Notes under the pieces: model-generated
Seen by the model: only the letters and a program-made list of their open reading frames with translations
Told to the model about the DNA's origin: nothing
Database searches by the model: none
Position numbers and translations under genes: made by a program
NCBI GenBank assembly: GCA_041661665.1
Contig: JBAZTW010000003.1
Coordinates: 7,088 to 71,087 of the forward strand
DNA from: Phycisphaerae bacterium
GTDB lineage: Bacteria > Planctomycetota > Phycisphaerae > Sedimentisphaerales > UBA12454
Direction: 5' to 3'
DNA: 64,000 nt
In this document: positions 3,609-62,108 of the stretch, piece by piece
Numbering within the stretch: position 1 is the first letter of the stretch
How the letters are laid out: every line of letters starts with the position of its first letter

Positions 3609-3623
3609 ACTATTTTTTGGTAA

Positions 3624-3649
3624 CCGCGTGGGCTAAGAGCCCACCCTAC
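3624..3649 (-). repeat. repeat family R1 (GTAGGGTGGGCTCTTAGCCCACGCGG), reverse orientation
   Basis: Exact reverse complement of the 26-mer found at 16128, 54612, 56736 and 62003. Palindromic core is GTGGGCT/AGCCCAC. Confidence 0.85.
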
Positions 3650-3666
3650 GAAATCGTTATAACAGA

Positions 3667-15144: not shown

Positions 15145-16131
15145 ATGATTGTAGGTCTCACTTATGATTTAAGAAAAGATTATGAAAAACTCGGCTATAG
15201 CGAGCAGGCCGTAGCCGAGTTTGATTCTGAAGAAACCATTTCGTTTATCGAATCCACCATACAGAGTCTCGGCTATGAGACCGCCCGAATCGGCAATGTG
15301 TTTTCGCTGTGCGAAAAATTGGCCGCCGGCGAAAAATGGGATTTGGTTTTCAATATCGCCGAAGGCCTTACCGGCAGAAACAGAGAAGCACAGGTTCCCG
15401 CGATGCTGGAGGCGTATAACATACCTTATACAATGTCTGACCCATTAGTTTGCGCGCTTACGCTTGATAAAGCGATGACCAAACGCATTTTGCAGTCGGC
15501 AGGTCTTGCGACACCGAGATTTGCTGTTGTGGAATCTGCGAAAGACATTGCCGGCATTTCACTGCGGTATCCGCTTTTCGCAAAACCAATCGCCGAAGGC
15601 ACAGGCAAGGGCGTTGATGAAAAAAGCAAAATTGAAAACCCAAAACAGCTTAAAACCGTCTGCGAAAATCTGCTTGAGCAGTTCAGGCAGCCTGTTTTAG
15701 TTGAAGAATTTCTGCCAGGCCGTGAATTTACCACCGCGATACTCGGCACGGGCAGCGATGCCTATGTGCTTGGCACGATGGAAATCGTAATGAGAACGCA
15801 AACCGATGGAAATATCTATTCTTATGATGCCAAGGAACGATGCGAGCAGTTGATAGACTATGTGCGGTTTGATGAAAAGCCGCTGGTCGATAAAATCGCC
15901 GCTCTGGCTCTTGAGGCTTACAAGGTTTTGGAATGTCGGGATACCGGCAGGATTGATATCCGCTGCGATTCAGCGGGCGAACCGTGTTTTATCGAAATTA
16001 ACCCTCTGCCCGGTATGCATCCGACACATTCTGATTTGCCGATGATTGCAACAAGAGAAGGTATGAGTTATAAAAACCTGGTAAAAACAATAATAGATAG
16101 CGCTTTAAAAAGGGTCAAAAAGTTTTTGTAG
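15145..16131 (+). CDS. ATP-grasp ligase, D-Ala-D-Ala ligase-like (1 of 2)
   Basis: 328 aa; LDKAMTKRIL, YPLFAKP, FIEINPLPG. Starts 1 nt after the kamA stop. Confidence 0.75.
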   Translation: MIVGLTYDLRKDYEKLGYSEQAVAEFDSEETISFIESTIQSLGYETARIGNVFSLCEKLAAGEKWDLVFNIAEGLTGRNREAQVPAMLEAYNIPYTMSDPLVCALTLDKAMTKRILQSAGLATPRFAVVESAKDIAGISLRYPLFAKPIAEGTGKGVDEKSKIENPKQLKTVCENLLEQFRQPVLVEEFLPGREFTTAILGTGSDAYVLGTMEIVMRTQTDGNIYSYDAKERCEQLIDYVRFDEKPLVDKIAALALEAYKVLECRDTGRIDIRCDSAGEPCFIEINPLPGMHPTHSDLPMIATREGMSYKNLVKTIIDSALKRVKKFL

Positions 16132-16153
16132 GGTGGGCTCTTAGCCCACGCGG
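16128..16153 (+). repeat. repeat family R1 between the two ATP-grasp genes
   Basis: Exact 26-mer. Its GTAGGG supplies the TAG stop (16129-16131) of the upstream ORF. Confidence 0.85.
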
Positions 16154-16160
16154 CTGCTAT

Positions 16161-37440: not shown

Positions 37441-37764
37441 ATGGAAACGACAAAAATAGCGGTTTTCAAAGGTAAAGAGATACGAAAAACAATCCAAAAG
37501 AATGAATGGTGGTTTTCGGTTGTTGATGTATGTGAGGCATTGACAGAGAGCCCCGATGCCGGAGCGTATTGGAGAAAGTTAAAACAACGGCTAAAAGAAG
37601 AAGGAAGCGAAGTTGTGACATTTTGTCACGGGTTGAAATTGGAAGCGCCGGACGGCAAAATGCGTGATACTGATTGTGCCAATACCGAAGGCGTTTTTCG
37701 CATAATCCAGTCGATTCCGTCACCTACAATCAGAGCCCAAGCGACAGCGCAAGGGGTTTCGTAG
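37441..37764 (+). pseudogene. Bro-N / prophage antirepressor-like gene fragment
   Basis: FKGKEIRKTIQKNEWWFSVVDVCEALT...TEGVFRIIQSIPSP, then the ORF runs into repeat R2, whose GTAGGGG supplies the stop. Homologues as I recall them continue well beyond this point. Confidence 0.55.
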
Positions 37765-37788
37765 GGGCAAACCTATGTGTCTGCCCAC
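37761..37788 (+). repeat. repeat family R2 (GTAGGGGCAGACCTGTGTGTCTGCCCGC), diverged copy
   Basis: 3 mismatches to the copies at 54572 and 56693. Confidence 0.75.
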
Positions 37789-37791
37789 ATT

Positions 37792-37816
37792 CAGAGCCGC
37801 GAATGTTAATGAGCGG
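37792..37816 (+). repeat. repeat family R5 variant
   Basis: CAGAGCCGCGAATGTTAATGAGCGG. Confidence 0.55.
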
Positions 37817-37819
37817 TAT

Positions 37820-37832
37820 TCCCTGTTTTTTT
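37820..37832 (+). repeat. left copy of 13-bp direct repeat TCCCTGTTTTTTT
   Basis: The same 13-mer recurs at 40320-40332. Confidence 0.5.
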
Positions 37833-38029
37833 AATTTTAGTGCGGGGTTGACAAAGAAAATTAAAAATTAAATATCAAAAATAAAAATGACCCCGATGAG
37901 ATAGTCGAAGCGACATCTCACAGGGCAGGCAAAGCAAAATTTAAAAATAGGTGGCTGTTCCTATTTTTACTATTTTTAATTTTTACGTATTTTTTCAACA
38001 TCGAATTGTGTTAAGCAAGGAACTATGAG

Positions 38030-39148
38030 ATGGCAATACCTTTAATCGCATTTGATGAAACAGGAAATACAGGACAAAATTTACTTGACCCTGACCAGCC
38101 AGTGTTTGTTTTAGCATCTGTTAATTTAAGCTATGCAGAAACACAACGTGCATTAGAAATCTTAAATCCCAAAAAAGGACAGGAAGTCCATTTTGCAAGT
38201 TTCAGTAAAAGTTGTTCTGGTAAGGCACGGATCTTGCAATTTTGCCAATCAGATTTAATTTCATCAGATAAAATAAATATAAGTGTAATCCATAAGGGCT
38301 ACATGGTTGTCACAAAGGTCGTTGATTTGCTTATAGAGAACTTATGTTACGAAACTGGATTTGACCTGTATAAAAATGGTGCTAATATTGGAATGGCAAA
38401 TATTTTTTATATGTGCATTCCGACTTTTTGTGGACAAGATAACTTTAAAAGTTTTTTGGATAAATTTGTTTGCATGATACGAAATAAAGATGCCAGTTCC
38501 ATTACAGAGTTCTATAAAAGTGTTAATAATCTGAGCTTAACATGTAATAGTAAGCTCTTCAAAGAAATGATTGAGCTTATATTAGCTACCCAGTGTATTA
38601 TTGATGAAGTAATTACTAGGTGTAGTGTTGTTGATTTAGATCCAGCTGTTCCTGCGTTCGTGAATGATTGTATTGCATGGGGAGAACAATTGGGCTGCGA
38701 ATTTAACATAGTTCATGACCAATCTAAACCAATTGAGCATCAACAAGAAATACTTACCTGTTTAATGGCCAAGGATGAACCAGAAATTATAGTTGGATAT
38801 GACCAAAGAAAAATGAAATACCCTTTAAAGGTGCATGGCTTTAAGTTGTGCGATTCTAATGTTGTGCCTCAAATACAAATAGCAGATATTATAAGTGGCA
38901 CATATGGCTATGTGCTAAAAGGTCGCTTAGGAAAAAAAGTTGACAATAACTTTTTTGAAACTATAGAGAAAAGTAAGTTGTTAGGTTTGCCATGTCATCC
39001 ACTTTGGCCGTCAGATGAAGTAACACCAGAAGACTTAGGGACAATAGGACCAGATGCAGGTGATCCAAACCTTTATGTTGGAAATTTAATTGACAGACAA
39101 AAAATGAAGAGGATGCAAAAAAGTAAAGAATCTCGAACTACGCTATAG
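38030..39148 (+). CDS. DUF3800-like protein
   Basis: N-terminal IAFDETGNTG and C-terminal CDSNVVPQIQIADIISG match the DUF3800 hallmarks as I remember them. AT-rich codons. Confidence 0.65.
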   Translation: MAIPLIAFDETGNTGQNLLDPDQPVFVLASVNLSYAETQRALEILNPKKGQEVHFASFSKSCSGKARILQFCQSDLISSDKINISVIHKGYMVVTKVVDLLIENLCYETGFDLYKNGANIGMANIFYMCIPTFCGQDNFKSFLDKFVCMIRNKDASSITEFYKSVNNLSLTCNSKLFKEMIELILATQCIIDEVITRCSVVDLDPAVPAFVNDCIAWGEQLGCEFNIVHDQSKPIEHQQEILTCLMAKDEPEIIVGYDQRKMKYPLKVHGFKLCDSNVVPQIQIADIISGTYGYVLKGRLGKKVDNNFFETIEKSKLLGLPCHPLWPSDEVTPEDLGTIGPDAGDPNLYVGNLIDRQKMKRMQKSKESRTTL

Positions 39149-39172
39149 ACAGATAAAAGTGCAGAAATAAAA

Positions 39173-40312
39173 ATGACAAAAATGATTAATTTGCTTAAGG
39201 ATTATTTAAAGACAATTGATTGGAGTTTGTTTAGACGCGGTCCAAAAGGGCCAGGAACATTGCTTATTGTTTTATCTATAGATAGTTTTGCCCATAGCCA
39301 GGGGTTTGAGTACGAGAAAGAAGTCTTTCTTGGCCTAACAAGAAAAACAAACAATCATAAAGGATATATTGATATAATCATTAAAAGCCCCGATGGAATT
39401 AAGTACGCAATAGAAATTGACAGCAGTAATAAAAAATGGTCGCTTGAAAAACTTCTCCATGCGCATAGTATAGGATATGTGCCGATTTGGGTTCGTTGGC
39501 GTGTAAAAATAAATATTAACATTCCAGCAATCATAAATTTGATAGATTTAACAGAACGTGAGACTTTTTCCACCATGGATTTGGAGCGAAAAGATATGAC
39601 CAATAAACTAAAACATGTTGAAATTTACACTGATGGTGCTTGTCGTCCCAACCCAGGTATTGGCGGCTATGGCTTAATATTGATATATTGTGATACACGT
39701 AAAGAAATAAGTGGTGGTTTTAATCATACGACAAACAATAGAATGGAGATGTATGCTGCTATTAAGGGATTGGAGATGCTCAAAGAAGCTTGTAAAGTTA
39801 CTTTGTATAGTGACTCAAAATACTTGGTCAATTCCATGGCCAAAGGAAGAGTTAAGCTTTGGCGAGATAATAATTGGCAGCTTCGTAAACATAAACAGAA
39901 AGAAATTGCCAATATAGATTTATGGACAAGATTACTGGCTTTATGTGACATTCACGAAGTCGAATTCAATTGGGTAAAAGGACATGATGGAAATCCTCTA
40001 AATGAAAGATGTGACATTCTTTCCACAATAGCTTGGGAACAAAAAGATTTGCCTGCTGATGAAGGTTACAAGAAGTCCAATGCAATTAAAGTCAATCACG
40101 ACAATCAACCATATAAAAACTATTCAGCTTCTGATGTTAAAATAACTTATGAGGGTCAACCATGCAGAAAGTGCTCAACTCCTGTGGTTAAGAAATTCAC
40201 ACGTAAAAATAGGGATAAAAGTCGTAGAAAGTATTGGTTTGAGTATTATTTTCATTGTCCAAATTGTCAGACTATGTATATGACTGATGAAGCAAAACGG
40301 TATATGCCTTAA
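39173..40312 (+). CDS. fusion protein: N-terminal PD-(D/E)xK-like domain + RNase HI + C-terminal Zn ribbon
   Basis: Full RNase HI core VEIYTDGACRPNPG...NNRMEMYAA...LYSDSKYLV...WVKGHDGNPLNERCD. N-terminus has GYIDIII...YAIEIDSSNKK. C-terminus has CRKC...CPNC. Confidence 0.8.
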   Translation: MTKMINLLKDYLKTIDWSLFRRGPKGPGTLLIVLSIDSFAHSQGFEYEKEVFLGLTRKTNNHKGYIDIIIKSPDGIKYAIEIDSSNKKWSLEKLLHAHSIGYVPIWVRWRVKININIPAIINLIDLTERETFSTMDLERKDMTNKLKHVEIYTDGACRPNPGIGGYGLILIYCDTRKEISGGFNHTTNNRMEMYAAIKGLEMLKEACKVTLYSDSKYLVNSMAKGRVKLWRDNNWQLRKHKQKEIANIDLWTRLLALCDIHEVEFNWVKGHDGNPLNERCDILSTIAWEQKDLPADEGYKKSNAIKVNHDNQPYKNYSASDVKITYEGQPCRKCSTPVVKKFTRKNRDKSRRKYWFEYYFHCPNCQTMYMTDEAKRYMP

Positions 40313-40319
40313 GTGATTG

Positions 40320-40332
40320 TCCCTGTTTTTTT
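40320..40332 (+). repeat. right copy of 13-bp direct repeat TCCCTGTTTTTTT
   Basis: Lies 8 nt after the stop of the RNase HI fusion gene. Confidence 0.5.
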
Positions 40333-40367
40333 CTGAAAAAGGGAAAACAAAAATGACGAAGCCTGTG

Positions 40368-41597
40368 TTATCTGCTTCTGCCGATGTTATTGATTAGGCC
40401 GATGGACATAATGTTTGTCATAATGCTTGAGCCGCCATAGCTGATGAATGGGAGAGTCAAACCTGTAATAGGTATCAGGCCAATCGTCATACTGATATTA
40501 ATCAAAATCTGGATTGCGAAAAGCACGGCGAAGCCTGCGGCGATGTAACTGCCAAACGTGTCGAAACTCGATGAGGCAATGTCAATCGAGCAGGCAATCA
40601 GCATCGCATATAAACACAACAGCAATACAGCGCCCGCGAATCCCCACTGATGGCAAACCAGCGCGAAAATAAAATCATTATGTCTGTCAGGCAGGAATTT
40701 ATATTTTATAAATGGGCCTGCGCGGTAGCCCTGACCTGCGAATCCGCCCGAGGCGATTGCAAGTTTGGAACGCATAAGCTGATAGCCTGCGCCGATATCC
40801 CAGTTTCGCAGTCGTTCGGTATTTACGCCGAGCAATTTTGCAAGTGCGGGATGTTTTTCAACTTTGGTTCTGAGCCAGCTTGGACTGCCGTCAATTTTAT
40901 TCTGCAATAATACCGAGCTAACTCTCATTCGTTGATAGTCTTCGATACCGAGCCAGAGAATCGGAAAGGCAATCACTGCCAGCAGAATTATCACAAGCAG
41001 ATGTTTGACTTTCGCGCCGGCGATAAACAGCATCGACAGCAGCACCGGCATCATCAGCATAACCGTACCCAAATCAGGCTCACGATATATCAGGAGCATC
41101 GGAAACAGCGTCAGGACAAATGGCGGGATAAGCGAAGTGAAATTTCGGTAATTGCTTCGATACCGCAGATGCCAGGCCAGCGCGATGATGTAAGCGAACT
41201 TGAAAAACTCCGAAGGCTGAAACTGTATCGAACCGATAACAATCCAGCATCGCGAGCCGTGCTTGACGTTGACGAAGGGCATATCTATGAATTGATCCAG
41301 CACGAGCCAGAAAAGCATGGCGATAGTCGCCCAGTAAAGGACGAAGCTCATTGAGCCGAGTTTTTTGTAGCTGAATGAATTTATTATTATAAAGCCGAGA
41401 AAACCGACGGCTGCGAAGAGACATTGCTTTTTCCACAAGCTCGAATAGCCTGCGAACTGCTGCATTTCTGAATTTACGGGGTTGCCGGATGCGTAAATCA
41501 TCATTACGCCGATAGCAACGAGTCCGCCTGCGCAGGCCAGGAGTATCAGCCGAGTTGCCAGAAGTCTGCCTTTGAAGAATTCAAAAATATCGAACAT
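40368..41597 (-). CDS. SEDS family protein (RodA/FtsW)
   Basis: Multi-TM; ...TGLTLPFISYGGSS... Start set at MFDIFEFF. Confidence 0.85.
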   Translation of the reverse strand: MFDIFEFFKGRLLATRLILLACAGGLVAIGVMMIYASGNPVNSEMQQFAGYSSLWKKQCLFAAVGFLGFIIINSFSYKKLGSMSFVLYWATIAMLFWLVLDQFIDMPFVNVKHGSRCWIVIGSIQFQPSEFFKFAYIIALAWHLRYRSNYRNFTSLIPPFVLTLFPMLLIYREPDLGTVMLMMPVLLSMLFIAGAKVKHLLVIILLAVIAFPILWLGIEDYQRMRVSSVLLQNKIDGSPSWLRTKVEKHPALAKLLGVNTERLRNWDIGAGYQLMRSKLAIASGGFAGQGYRAGPFIKYKFLPDRHNDFIFALVCHQWGFAGAVLLLCLYAMLIACSIDIASSSFDTFGSYIAAGFAVLFAIQILINISMTIGLIPITGLTLPFISYGGSSIMTNIMSIGLINNIGRSR

Positions 41598-42089: not shown

Positions 42090-42161
42090 TACCCGGTGGT
42101 GTAATTGGCAACACAGAGGTTTTTGGTACCTCTATTTCTGGTTCGAGTCCAGACCGGGTAG
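42090..42161 (+). tRNA. tRNA-Gln (anticodon UUG)
   Basis: Manual cloverleaf. Acceptor TACCCGG/CCGGGTA, D arm GTGT..ACAC, anticodon stem GAGGT/ACCTC with loop TTTTGGT, T arm TCTGG-TTCGAGT-CCAGA. No encoded CCA. Confidence 0.85.
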
Positions 42162-42180
42162 TATAAAAAAATAAAATATC

Positions 42181-42220
42181 AAAAATTAAAAATAAAAATT
42201 GTGGATTCGCCTTTGGCGAA
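42181..42220 (+). repeat. repeat family R9 (AAAAATTAAAAATNAAAATTGTGGAWTCG + hairpin)
   Basis: Matches 52157-52199. Ends 11 nt before the glmU ATG. Confidence 0.7.
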
Positions 42221-54599: not shown

Positions 54600-54611
54600 A
54601 GTCAGAGTTTT

Positions 54612-54637
54612 GTAGGGTGGGCTCTTAGCCCACGCGG
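54612..54637 (+). repeat. repeat family R1
   Basis: Exact 26-mer. Confidence 0.85.
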
Positions 54638-54660
54638 TTACTATTTTCAGGAAAAGAATA

Positions 54661-56719: not shown

Positions 56720-56735
56720 TTCCTTTTTAACAGTT

Positions 56736-56761
56736 GTAGGGTGGGCTCTTAGCCCACGCGG
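56736..56761 (+). repeat. repeat family R1
   Basis: Exact 26-mer. Confidence 0.85.
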
Positions 56762-61993: not shown

Positions 61994-62002
61994 AAAAGTT
62001 TC

Positions 62003-62028
62003 GTAGGGTGGGCTCTTAGCCCACGCGG
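62003..62028 (+). repeat. repeat family R1
   Basis: Exact 26-mer. Confidence 0.85.
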
Positions 62029-62108
62029 TTCATTAAAAACTTTGTAACATTTTAGCCAAATGTAAAAAAATAGGAAACCGCCTATGGCGGAAGCTATTTT
62101 ATACTGGA

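What the first reader, a model, noticed from the sequence alone, without database searches (positions are those of the whole stretch)
39173..40312. Unusual three-part RNase HI fusion (PD-(D/E)xK-like N-terminus, RNase HI, CxxC...CxxC ribbon)
Seen in the sequence:
- Residues ~145-285 carry all four RNase HI catalytic acidic positions in the canonical order: YTDGA, NNRMEM, YSDSKY, NERCD.
- The first ~140 aa contain GYIDIIIKSPDGIKYAIEIDSSNKKWSLEKLL. This resembles the D...(D/E)xK / Vsr-DUF559-like core strand pattern.
- The last ~60 aa contain CRKC...(31 aa)...CPNC.

Established knowledge: housekeeping bacterial RNase HI is ~150 aa and single-domain.

Inference: the extra domains could target or couple hybrid cleavage to DNA cleavage. 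The nuclease assignment of the N-terminus is tentative and rests on one short motif.
Basis: partly seen in the sequence, partly recalled or inferred. Interest (0 to 1): 0.62.

Follow-up and report, generated by a model that had tools for sequence, protein, structure and literature searches.

The report
One-off nuclease–RNase HI–zinc-finger gene fusion
A real but apparently unique gene in one uncultured Phycisphaerae bacterium joins a small DNA-nuclease-like protein to a common "RNase HI plus zinc finger" enzyme, on a recently acquired DNA island; it is a curiosity rather than a new class of enzyme.

Summary

- **Middle domain.** Residues 146-290 are a canonical RNase HI with an intact D154/E192/D214/H271/D281 site.
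- **C-terminal ribbon.** This CxxC…CxxC ribbon is not unusual. 178 of the 183 closest RNase HI relatives carry it. In Sedimentisphaerales it sits in a conserved fabG-acpP-fabF neighbourhood, so it looks like a housekeeping form. It resembles the Fpg/Nei zinc finger (hhalign probability 95%).
- **N-terminal domain.** Residues 1-128 belong to an unnamed family of stand-alone proteins of about 130 aa. The AlphaFold2 model is confident (pLDDT 92.6) and matches PD-(D/E)xK nucleases. The motif is D67…E81-x-D83 plus invariant K87. In the closest relatives this gene is followed by a pentapeptide-repeat/ion-channel gene, never by RNase H.
- **The fusion.** The three-part protein occurs only in this strain. 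The junction lies at codon 128. The linker looks like the old RNase HI 5' leader and keeps a GGAG 9 nt before Met142.
- **Context.** The gene lies with a DUF3800 gene on a 2.6-kb, 35%-GC island. Relatives with 86-89% identical flanks lack this island.

Coupled DNA and hybrid cleavage is plausible but untested. Interest is moderate.

The parts
39173..40312 (+). Whole fused ORF, 379 aa from the first ATG. The likely true start is the ATG at 39182 (376 aa).
   Evidence: homologues begin at MINLL
39173..39556 (+). N-terminal PD-(D/E)xK-fold domain (residues 1-128). Family-invariant residues are E50, D67, E81, D83, K87, S90, K93, L94, W106, W109 and P118.
   Evidence: Representative search: 155 relatives, mostly stand-alone proteins of 125-160 aa. 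Alignments A1/A2. AlphaFold2 pLDDT 92.6. Foldseek against PDB and BFVD.
39557..39595 (+). Linker (residues 129-141). It has no homology to either parent family and is probably the former 5' leader of the RNase HI gene, now translated. It contains GGAG at 39583-39586.
   Evidence: Nucleotide homology to stand-alone genes stops after codon 128. pLDDT is 62-73 here. GGAG lies 9 nt upstream of ATG 39596.
39596..39598 (+). ATG of Met142. This is the probable ancestral start of the RNase HI-zinc-finger gene and a possible internal start.
   Evidence: Two-domain homologues start 5-10 residues before IYTDGA. A Shine-Dalgarno-like GGAG is upstream.
39608..40042 (+). RNase HI catalytic domain (residues 146-290). 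D154, E192, D214, H271 and D281 correspond to E. coli D10, E48, D70, H124 and D134. The basic protrusion is present.
40043..40138 (+). Variable, predicted-disordered linker (residues 291-322) between RNase HI and the zinc ribbon.
   Evidence: pLDDT about 42 for A3 positions 1-24. Length and sequence vary among homologues.
40139..40309 (+). C-terminal four-Cys zinc ribbon (residues 323-379). CRKC is at 40163-40174 and CPNC at 40256-40267, with a basic hairpin between them. It is Fpg/Nei-zinc-finger-like.
   Evidence: Alignment A3: C36, C39, C67 and C70 invariant. Core pLDDT about 90. hhalign against the E. coli Fpg C-terminus gives probability 94.9%. Top Foldseek hits are MutM/Nei/Nei2, but E=0.7. 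Weak HMM hits.
38030..39148 (+). Upstream DUF3800 gene (372 aa). It ends 24 nt before the fused ORF, has the same low GC and is probably co-transcribed.
   Evidence: Pfam PF12686 at 28.5 bits against a cutoff of 21. phrog_12991 at E=2e-69. No terminator-like site between the genes. Present with the fusion in L001/L002.
37738..40367 (.). Strain-specific island of about 35% GC that carries the DUF3800 gene and the fused gene. It lies between a truncated Bro-N gene and the rodA stop codon.
   Evidence: GC profile. Synteny with relatives of 86-89% identity ends at 40368 and 37737.
37765..38029 (+). 265-nt non-coding leader of the DUF3800 gene with predicted structure. It is a possible ncRNA and is unverified.
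   Evidence: Folding z-score -2.9, with 0 of 200 shuffles folding as well. No Rfam match.

Best explanation
**What it is (shown).** This is a genuine, recently formed gene fusion on a horizontally acquired accessory island. A recombination joined codon ~128 of a small stand-alone PD-(D/E)xK-fold gene to the 5' leader of an RNase HI-zinc-finger gene. Translation from Met1/Met4 now reads through the old leader (residues 129-141) into RNase HI. All three parts are intact.

**How it most likely works (inferred).**
- The RNase HI domain uses its DEDD-His site to cut the RNA strand of RNA:DNA hybrids, like any type-1 RNase H.
- The C-terminal Fpg/Nei-like zinc finger, with its basic hairpin, acts as an extra nucleic-acid backbone clamp. 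This is analogous in role to the hybrid-binding domain of eukaryotic RNase H1. It is the normal state of this widespread two-domain RNase HI.
- The tethered N-terminal domain keeps a full acidic metal-binding set (D67, E81, D83, plus E50 and K87). It is probably an Mg2+-dependent DNA endonuclease.
- In the fusion, that endonuclease is brought to wherever the RNase HI/zinc-finger moiety binds. It could therefore nick or cut DNA at or next to hybrids or R-loops.

The gene is an accessory function of a variable, defence-island-like hotspot. It is not the lineage's housekeeping rnhA.
For: - **Intact RNase HI:**
- **Ribbon is the norm in relatives:** 178 of 183 close RNase HI relatives carry it. 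It is strongly conserved and Fpg-like.
- **N-domain family:** a family of stand-alone proteins with invariant acidic residues, all retained here. The model is confident and PD-(D/E)xK-like. A profile alignment to Cas4 SSO0001 places D67 and E81-I-D83 on that protein's D…E-I-K stretch. Other family members are fused to HTH or zinc-finger DNA-binding modules.
- **Junction:** mapped at codon 128, with the GGAG-ATG of Met142 preserved.
- **Uniqueness:** the only full-length match among 5.8 billion protein clusters is the identical P0001. None of about 40 loci with N-domain relatives has RNase H nearby.
- **Island:** 35% GC against 47-50% in the flanks. It is absent from relatives with 86-89% identical flanks, where a full-length Bro-N gene and a 172-aa gene, or nothing, sit in its place.
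- **Reproducibility:** identical DNA in two further assemblies.
- **Phylogeny:** the RNase HI part sits on a long branch outside the Sedimentisphaerales housekeeping clade.
Against: - No biochemical data exist.
- The canonical Lys of (D/E)xK is Asp here, so nuclease activity is not assured.
- The fusion occurs in a single strain. There is therefore no evolutionary replication and no evidence that selection favours the fused state.
- The preserved GGAG-ATG at Met142 means RNase HI could still be made separately.
- I could not search the rest of this genome for a second rnhA, so 'accessory' rests on the absence of the island in relatives, GC content and the tree.
- The Fpg-like assignment of the ribbon rests on one pairwise hhalign and sub-threshold hits.
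Confidence: 0.5

Rival explanations
1. The fusion is functionally neutral. The cell mainly makes the ordinary RNase HI-zinc-finger protein from the internal start at Met142, using its old Shine-Dalgarno sequence. The upstream nuclease-fold part is either a separate activity with an irrelevant read-through tail or on its way to decay. No coupling of activities exists.
For: - GGAG lies 9 nt before ATG 39596, while the annotated start has no Shine-Dalgarno-like motif. About 43% of long ORFs in the window have one.
- The linker is unrelated to either parent and is predicted with low confidence.
- The fusion is a singleton.
Against: - There is no stop codon between the parts, so any ribosome starting at Met4 must make the fused protein.
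- All family-invariant residues of the N-domain are retained.
- A Shine-Dalgarno-like tetramer in a 14-nt window is expected by chance roughly 1 time in 8.
Confidence: 0.25
2. The island is an undescribed anti-mobile-element module. It would consist of DUF3800 (RNase H2-like fold, usually partnered with an ncRNA or a retron), a structured leader RNA, and the dual-nuclease fusion as effector. The effector would destroy RNA:DNA hybrid replication intermediates of phages or plasmids.
For: - The variable hotspot next to rodA holds a PADLOC candidate PDC-S13/Bro-N gene in relatives. That gene is truncated here.
- DUF3800 is linked to retron type VII and to 11 ncRNA motifs (PMC7736814, PMC5737381).
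- The leader folds better than all shuffles.
- N-domain relatives form a conserved two-gene module with a pentapeptide/ion-channel protein, or sit beside McrBC-like genes.
- A 60%-identical RNase HI-ribbon gene lies between Fic and a reverse transcriptase.
Against: - There is no significant PADLOC match for the fusion or for DUF3800.
- There is no reverse transcriptase in the window.
- There is no Rfam DUF3800 motif.
- DUF3800 is not next to RNase HI-ribbon or N-domain genes in any other locus examined.
- The arrangement is seen once, so guilt by association has no replication.
Confidence: 0.15
3. It is this organism's only, housekeeping RNase HI, and it happens to have captured an extra N-terminal domain.
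For: - It passes the NCBIfam rnhA equivalog cutoff.
- There is no other RNase HI in the 64-kb window.
- RNase HI plus ribbon is the housekeeping form in related Sedimentisphaerales.
Against: - The gene is missing at this locus in close relatives.
- Its GC content is about 12 points below that of the flanking genes.
- It does not cluster with the fabG-linked Sedimentisphaerales clade.
- It is not in the conserved fabG-acpP-fabF context.
Confidence: 0.08
4. It is an assembly or sequencing artefact that merges two adjacent genes.
For: It comes from a metagenome-assembled genome, and both Logan contigs break at the island's left edge, at 37862.
Against: Three assemblies from different runs are 100% identical across the junction. 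The junction is a replacement of sequence, not a single-base frame or stop change.
Confidence: 0.02

Closest known systems
Bacterial RNase HI (rnhA; E. coli RNase HI, Chlorobium tepidum RNase H 3h08)
   Same: Residues 146-290 align end to end with 3h08 (E=1e-42). They have D154/E192/D214/H271/D281 and the basic protrusion, and they pass the NCBIfam equivalog cutoff.
   Different: Here the domain carries about 145 extra residues at the N-terminus and about 90 at the C-terminus. The gene sits on an accessory island.
The widespread but unnamed two-domain 'RNase HI + C-terminal CxxC…CxxC ribbon' proteins (224-250 aa; Planctomycetota/Sedimentisphaerales, Chloroflexota such as Chloroploca and Anaerolineales)
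   Same: Residues 142-379 are a full member. They are 55-61% identical over the whole length and share the ribbon consensus KITxEGQPCRKCSTPVVK…YYFEYYxxCPxCxTMYMxxEAKR.
   Different: None of the other 178 ribbon-bearing relatives examined has the N-terminal nuclease-fold domain. Some instead carry a second ribbon (P0006, P0015, P0018, P0028).
Fpg/MutM-Nei C-terminal zinc finger (Pfam zf-FPG_IleRS)
   Same: It has four Cys in a β-hairpin ribbon. EGQPCRKCSTPVVK aligns with E. coli Fpg RKGEPCRVCGTPIVA, and YCPxCQ aligns with YCRQCQ (hhalign probability 94.9%). MutM, Nei and Nei2 are the top Foldseek hits.
   Different: It has an insertion of about 10 basic/aromatic residues in the hairpin. It scores below the Pfam gathering threshold (10.3 against 21.3 bits). 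It is attached to RNase HI, not to a glycosylase.
PD-(D/E)xK nucleases: Bax1, Cas4/ACE1, NucS/EndoMS, SfsA and small phage PD-(D/E)xK proteins
   Same: It has the same α-β-β-β-α-β core. The Asp on β2 and the Glu on β3 are in register with the Cas4 D…ExK motif.
   Different: The Lys position is Asp (E81-I-D83), and an invariant Lys lies four residues later. There is no significant sequence match to any Pfam PD-(D/E)xK family. Foldseek TM-scores are only 0.4-0.6.
Eukaryotic and Bacillus halodurans RNase H1 with an N-terminal hybrid-binding domain; bifunctional RNase H/acid phosphatase (Rv2228c type)
   Same: These are precedents for RNase HI carrying an extra nucleic-acid-binding or catalytic domain.
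   Different: No hybrid-binding domain (Pfam Cauli_VI) is detected. The NCBIfam bifunctional RNase H/phosphatase model scores 32.9 bits against a cutoff of 326.

Membership tests
RNase HI (type 1 RNase H, PF00075 / NCBIfam NF001236) | Profile score above the curated cutoffs | tested here: met
   Pfam 130.3 bits (cutoff 25.8). NCBIfam equivalog 178.6 bits (cutoff 160)..
RNase HI (type 1 RNase H, PF00075 / NCBIfam NF001236) | Four catalytic carboxylates plus His, in canonical order | tested here: met
   D154, E192, D214, H271 and D281 align with E. coli D10, E48, D70, H124 and D134.
RNase HI (type 1 RNase H, PF00075 / NCBIfam NF001236) | Cleaves the RNA strand of RNA:DNA hybrids | not testable with these tools
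   This needs an enzyme assay.
Two-domain RNase HI + C-terminal zinc ribbon (unnamed) | Conserved ribbon consensus with four invariant Cys, following a variable linker after RNase HI | tested here: met
   A3: C36, C39, C67 and C70 invariant. The window sequence is 43-63% identical to 40 homologous C-termini. 178 of 183 relatives have the ribbon.
Fpg/Nei-type zinc finger (PF06827 zf-FPG_IleRS) | Pfam model above the gathering score | tested here: not met
   10.0-10.3 bits against 21.3. 11 of 41 family members hit weakly.
Fpg/Nei-type zinc finger (PF06827 zf-FPG_IleRS) | Profile and structural similarity to a bona fide Fpg zinc finger | tested here: inconclusive
Foldseek top hits are MutM/Nei/Nei2, but E=0.7.
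PD-(D/E)xK nuclease superfamily | α-β-β-β-α-β restriction-endonuclease-like core fold | tested here: met
   AlphaFold2 pLDDT 92.6, with H25-42, E46-56, E63-71, E77-83, H88-99 and E103-108. PDB and BFVD hits are dominated by PD-(D/E)xK nucleases.
PD-(D/E)xK nuclease superfamily | Catalytic D…(D/E)xK signature | tested here: inconclusive
   D67 and E81 are invariant and in register. The K position is an invariant D83, and K87 is nearly invariant. I could not inspect the model's active-site geometry.
   No such Pfam hit for the window domain at E<=10, nor among 39 family members at E<=1. The only trace is a rank-24 BFVD structural hit to a DUF559 protein.
RNase H1 with hybrid-binding domain | N-terminal hybrid-binding domain (dsRHbd / Cauli_VI) | tested here: not met
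   No such Pfam hit. The N-terminus has a different fold.
Bifunctional RNase H/acid phosphatase (NF005567) | Score above the cutoff, including the phosphatase domain | tested here: not met
   32.9 bits against 326, on the RNase H part only.
Known anti-phage defence systems (PADLOC-DB v2) | Significant match of the fusion or its DUF3800 neighbour to a defence model | tested here: not met
   The fusion matches only PDC-S26, at E=0.002 and 15 bits over about 40 residues. DUF3800 has no match. The truncated Bro-N neighbour matches PDC-S13 at E=4e-42.

The most novel reading that the evidence does not exclude
The small PD-(D/E)xK-fold protein family could be a modular nuclease or sensor component of undescribed conflict systems that pairs with interchangeable partners. 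In most Planctomycetota relatives the partner is a pentapeptide-repeat/K+-channel-like membrane protein. Here the partner would be an RNase HI-zinc-finger joined by fusion. Together with DUF3800 and a structured leader RNA, the island would then be a new defence module that recognises and destroys RNA:DNA-hybrid intermediates of invading elements by cutting both strands.
Probability: 0.12. Interest if true: 0.75.

Novelty: new variant of a known kind. Interest (0 to 1): 0.4.

Why it matters
If the fused protein is active in both halves, it would be a natural enzyme that cuts both the RNA and the DNA at RNA:DNA hybrids or R-loops. That would be useful as a tool and relevant to how cells or mobile elements deal with hybrids. 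As a single-strain fusion, its biological weight is limited.

Three by-products may matter more:
- A very widespread RNase HI form with an Fpg/Nei-like zinc finger has no Pfam model for that domain and no literature that I could find.
- An unnamed PD-(D/E)xK-fold family has a conserved pentapeptide/ion-channel partner gene.
- A DUF3800 gene has a structured leader.

Each of these can be tested directly.

Tried and rejected
**Tools and searches that failed or found nothing**
- A homologue search with the ribbon alone returned only one candidate because of the word-index limit. I characterised the ribbon from the full-length hits instead.
- The search for related loci with the 39-sequence alignment failed. 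A smaller alignment worked.
- Viral-contig scans for the N-domain, the ribbon and DUF3800 found nothing.
- Literature searches found nothing on an RNase HI zinc ribbon or on this fusion. One search was rejected for syntax.

**Ideas tested and not supported**
- No known DUF3800 RNA motif lies on the island, by Rfam at the gathering threshold and at E<=1.
- No reverse transcriptase is present in the window, so a retron reading is not supported.
- Promoter and terminator scans were no better than shuffles.
- Loss of the stop codon by a point mutation is rejected. Nucleotide homology to stand-alone genes ends at codon 128, and the downstream sequence is replaced.

**Left open**
- The 13-nt direct repeat TCCCTGTTTTTTT (37820 and 40320) is of a length expected by chance about 0.5 times in 8.5 kb, and it is T-rich. 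I do not rely on it as an attachment site.
- The search for a second RNase HI of the same MAG, using P0081 as query, was inconclusive.
- Contexts of distant N-domain relatives in Nocardia, Streptomyces, Terriglobus and an archaeon showed no common neighbour.
Full report
**1. Observation**

The ORF at 39173-40312 (+) is open for 379 codons. The opposite strand has only short shadow ORFs.
- YTDGA at residue 152, NNRMEM at 188, YSDSKY at 212, NERCD at 277
- IDIII at 66, IEIDSS at 80
- CRKC at 331, CPNC at 362

Relatives of the N-terminal domain begin at MINLL…. The true start is therefore probably the second ATG at 39182, giving 376 aa, which is how the gene was called elsewhere (P0001).

The window comes from a Phycisphaerae metagenome-assembled genome. 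Its S2, Prs, Pth, RodA and DUF3800 proteins are GenBank MFA6185880 to MFA6185892 on an 82-kb contig. Two independent Logan assemblies (SRR18595301 and SRR6484324) carry 3.5-3.8 kb that is 100% identical across the whole gene. The continuous frame is therefore not a sequencing error.

**2. RNase HI domain**

Residues 146-290 match:
- Pfam RNase_H at E=7e-38
- the NCBIfam rnhA equivalog at 178.6 bits (cutoff 160)
- solved RNases HI at E=1e-42 (3h08) and 1e-40 (E. coli)

D154, E192, D214, H271 and D281 align with E. coli D10, E48, D70, H124 and D134. The basic protrusion is present. No second RNase HI lies in the window.

**3. C-terminal ribbon**

This part is not unusual. 4283 proteins matched the full query. 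118 of the 119 best non-identical hits are proteins of 221-308 aa that cover only residues ~142-379 at 52-61% identity and carry the same CxxC…CxxC module. After a second search seeded with a Sedimentisphaerales protein, 178 of 183 relatives have it. A few have two copies.

The consensus is KITxEGQPCRKCSTPVVKRxPRKKPKxxQxYYFEYYLYCPxCxTMYMVEEAKR, with four invariant Cys. AlphaFold2 gives a β-rich core at pLDDT ~90 after a disordered linker.

Pfam has no model that covers the window's copy. 37 of the 41 family members weakly hit PF23895, 'Phage zinc binding domain'.

Several independent weak signals point to the Fpg/Nei zinc finger:
- NCBIfam Nei2 and Pfam zf-FPG_IleRS, both sub-threshold
- a profile hit to Fpg 1k82
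- MutM, Nei and Nei2 as the top Foldseek hits, with 41 columns, 27-29% identity and E~0.7
- an hhalign probability of 94.9% against the E. coli Fpg C-terminus (EGQPCRKCSTPVVK / RKGEPCRVCGTPIVA), with an insertion of about 10 basic residues in the hairpin

In two different Sedimentisphaerales genomes, the two-domain gene sits divergently from a conserved 265-aa gene and fabG-acpP-fabF. This is a stable housekeeping-type context. In other lineages the context differs, for example between Fic and a reverse transcriptase next to a transposase.

**4. N-terminal domain**

Pfam finds nothing at E<=10. An exhaustive phmmer search of 1.84 billion representatives finds 155 relatives (29 at E<=1e-10). 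Most are stand-alone proteins of 125-160 aa. The best is 130 aa and 66% identical over residues 4-130.

The family keeps E50, D67, E81, D83, K87, S90, K93, L94, W106, W109 and P118, and the window retains all of them.

The AlphaFold2 model is confident (pLDDT 92.6, pTM 0.83) and has α-α-β-β-β-α-β-β topology. Foldseek hits are almost exclusively PD-(D/E)xK nucleases:
- Bax1 (4e-4), Cas4-family ACE1, NucS/EndoMS, MspJI, SfsA, Card1/Can2, McrC and type II restriction enzymes
- among viral models, small uncharacterised phage proteins (3.8e-6, TM 0.54-0.62), followed by annotated PD-(D/E)xK, RecB, Cas4, DUF559, DUF2726, RecU and Mrr proteins

A non-significant profile alignment to Cas4 SSO0001 puts D67 and E81-I-D83 in register with that protein's D…E-I-K stretch. 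The fold assignment is therefore supported. The motif is a D…ExD variant with a nearby invariant Lys, so catalysis is likely but unproven.

The specific Vsr/DUF559 label is not supported by sequence. Longer family members add sigma-70-region-4/HTH or DUF4379 zinc-finger modules, which suggests a DNA-directed role.

**5. The fusion**

Only the identical P0001 matches all three parts among 5.8 billion clusters. I examined 24 genome loci and 18 metagenome loci encoding N-domain relatives. None has RNase H or DUF3800 nearby.

In at least 16 loci, the closest relatives (58-70% identical, Planctomycetota) are instead followed 5-10 nt downstream by a pentapeptide-repeat protein with an Ion_trans_2 pore carrying a GFGD signature. 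One lineage sits after McrB/McrC-like genes; I identified these from the sequences by eye and did not scan them.

At the nucleotide level, the window matches the stand-alone genes up to …TTAACAGA at codon 128. It then diverges. The relatives continue with 3-5 codons, TAA and the next gene's ATG. The window continues with …cgtgagactttttccaccATGgatttGGAGcgaaaagatATG….

Two-domain RNase HI proteins start 5-10 residues before IYTDGA. Met142 is therefore the likely ancestral start. The GGAG 9 nt upstream is its Shine-Dalgarno sequence. Residues 129-141 are a translated former leader.

The fusion thus arose by recombination or deletion, not by a stop-codon point mutation. Internal initiation at Met142 remains possible. 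About 43% of long ORFs in the window have a Shine-Dalgarno-like core, and the annotated start has none.

**6. Genomic setting**

The stretch 37800-40350 is ~35% GC, against 47-50% in the flanking rodA-glmU-prs-L25-pth genes.

Relatives share 86-89% nucleotide identity through pth…rodA. Their synteny with the window ends exactly at the rodA stop codon (window 40368).
- One group has a 172-aa gene and a full-length 275-aa Bro-N gene there.
- Another group has neither.

The window keeps only the first ~96 codons of that Bro-N gene (37441-37764), which matches PADLOC candidate PDC-S13 at positions 1-99 of 286. This is followed by the island, which carries a DUF3800 gene (38030-39148; phrog_12991 E=2e-69) and, 24 nt later, the fusion.

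The fusion is therefore an accessory gene in a variable hotspot. In a crude neighbour-joining tree, its RNase HI-ribbon part sits on a long branch outside the fabG-linked Sedimentisphaerales clade. I could not search the rest of the genome for a housekeeping copy (one search was inconclusive).

**7. Mechanism**

Shown:
- three intact modules
- a complete RNase HI active site
- a conserved four-Cys ribbon
- a PD-(D/E)xK fold with conserved acidic residues
- single-strain origin on an island

Inferred:
- RNase HI cleaves the RNA of hybrids.
- The Fpg/Nei-like finger with its basic hairpin supplies additional backbone contacts. This is a role analogous to a hybrid-binding domain and is the normal state of this RNase HI subfamily.
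- The tethered N-domain is an Mg2+-dependent DNA endonuclease that the fusion brings to hybrid or R-loop substrates.

Rivals are listed with their tests in the Rival explanations section:
- neutral fusion with separate translation from Met142 (0.25)
- part of a DUF3800-centred defence module (0.15)
- housekeeping enzyme with a captured domain (0.08)
- artefact (0.02)

**8. Comparison and novelty**

The protein is a member of RNase HI and of the unnamed RNase HI-ribbon subfamily. Its N-domain belongs structurally to the PD-(D/E)xK superfamily but to no named family. Its ribbon works like, and is probably related to, the Fpg/Nei zinc finger, but it fails the Pfam threshold. It is not an HBD-type RNase H1 and not the RNase H/phosphatase type.

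I rate it a new variant of a known kind. The three-part architecture is new but occurs once. The two-part architecture is common and seemingly undescribed.

Interest is 0.4. However, the ribbon is ordinary for this clade, the fusion has no evolutionary replication, and function is untested.

**9. Dead ends**

These are listed in the tried-and-rejected field.

Noticed in passing
window 37765-38029 (+): The 265-nt non-coding leader of the DUF3800 gene folds better than all 200 shuffles (z=-2.9). It contains a strong hairpin, GAGAUAGUCGAAGCGACAUCUC, at about 37899-37922. It has no Rfam match. DUF3800 genes are known to associate with 11 different ncRNA motifs and with type VII retrons (PMC5737381, PMC7736814).
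   Followed up: partly
L003-L007 (e.g. L005 5001-6289), L043-L054: There is a conserved two-gene module in Planctomycetota. The stand-alone ~128-aa PD-(D/E)xK-fold gene is followed 5-10 nt later by a pentapeptide-repeat protein with an Ion_trans_2 pore (GFGD signature). This is seen in at least 16 loci and looks like an undescribed gene pair, possibly a conflict system.
   Followed up: partly
window 38030-39148 (+): The DUF3800 protein carries the N-terminal FDETG ('DE') motif and a C-terminal QIAD ('QxxD') motif, both described for this family. DUF3800 has been modelled as RNase H2-like (PMC7736814). The island may therefore encode two RNase H-fold proteins in tandem.
   Followed up: partly
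window 37441-37764 (+): This is a truncated Bro-N gene of 107 aa. Relatives have 275 aa (L027 10161-10988). It matches PADLOC candidate PDC-S13 at positions 1-99 of 286, and its C-terminal part has been replaced by the island.
   Followed up: yes
window 37820-37832 and 40320-40332: An exact 13-nt direct repeat, TCCCTGTTTTTTT, lies 2500 nt apart just inside both island borders. It may be chance or terminator tails rather than attachment sites.
   Followed up: partly
window 3622-3653, 16124-16156, 54606-54645, 56734-56761, 61997-62030; L030 9277-9310: A dispersed element of ~30-40 nt contains the hairpin GTGGGCTcttAGCCCAC. It recurs in intergenic regions of the window and of relatives, including right after rodA in L030. 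It is REP-like or terminator-like.
   Followed up: no
L001 and L002 ends = window 37862: Both independent Logan contigs end at exactly the same base near the island's left border. This suggests strain heterogeneity or a repeat at that junction.
   Followed up: no
L039 3348-7084: An RNase HI-ribbon gene 60% identical to the window's (P0013) lies between a Fic gene and a 422-aa RVT_1 reverse transcriptase, next to DDE transposase fragments. Some members of the two-domain family therefore sit in mobile or retroelement contexts.
   Followed up: partly
P0006, P0015, P0018, P0028, P0029, P0037: Some RNase HI-ribbon proteins (280-298 aa) carry a second, shorter copy of the zinc ribbon in tandem.
   Followed up: no
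window 42090-42161 (+) and 37845-37888 / 42156-42199: A tRNA gene lies between rodA and glmU. A 44-nt A/T-rich stretch starting in its 3' end is 77% similar to sequence at the island's left edge. This is low-complexity sequence and probably not meaningful.
   Followed up: no
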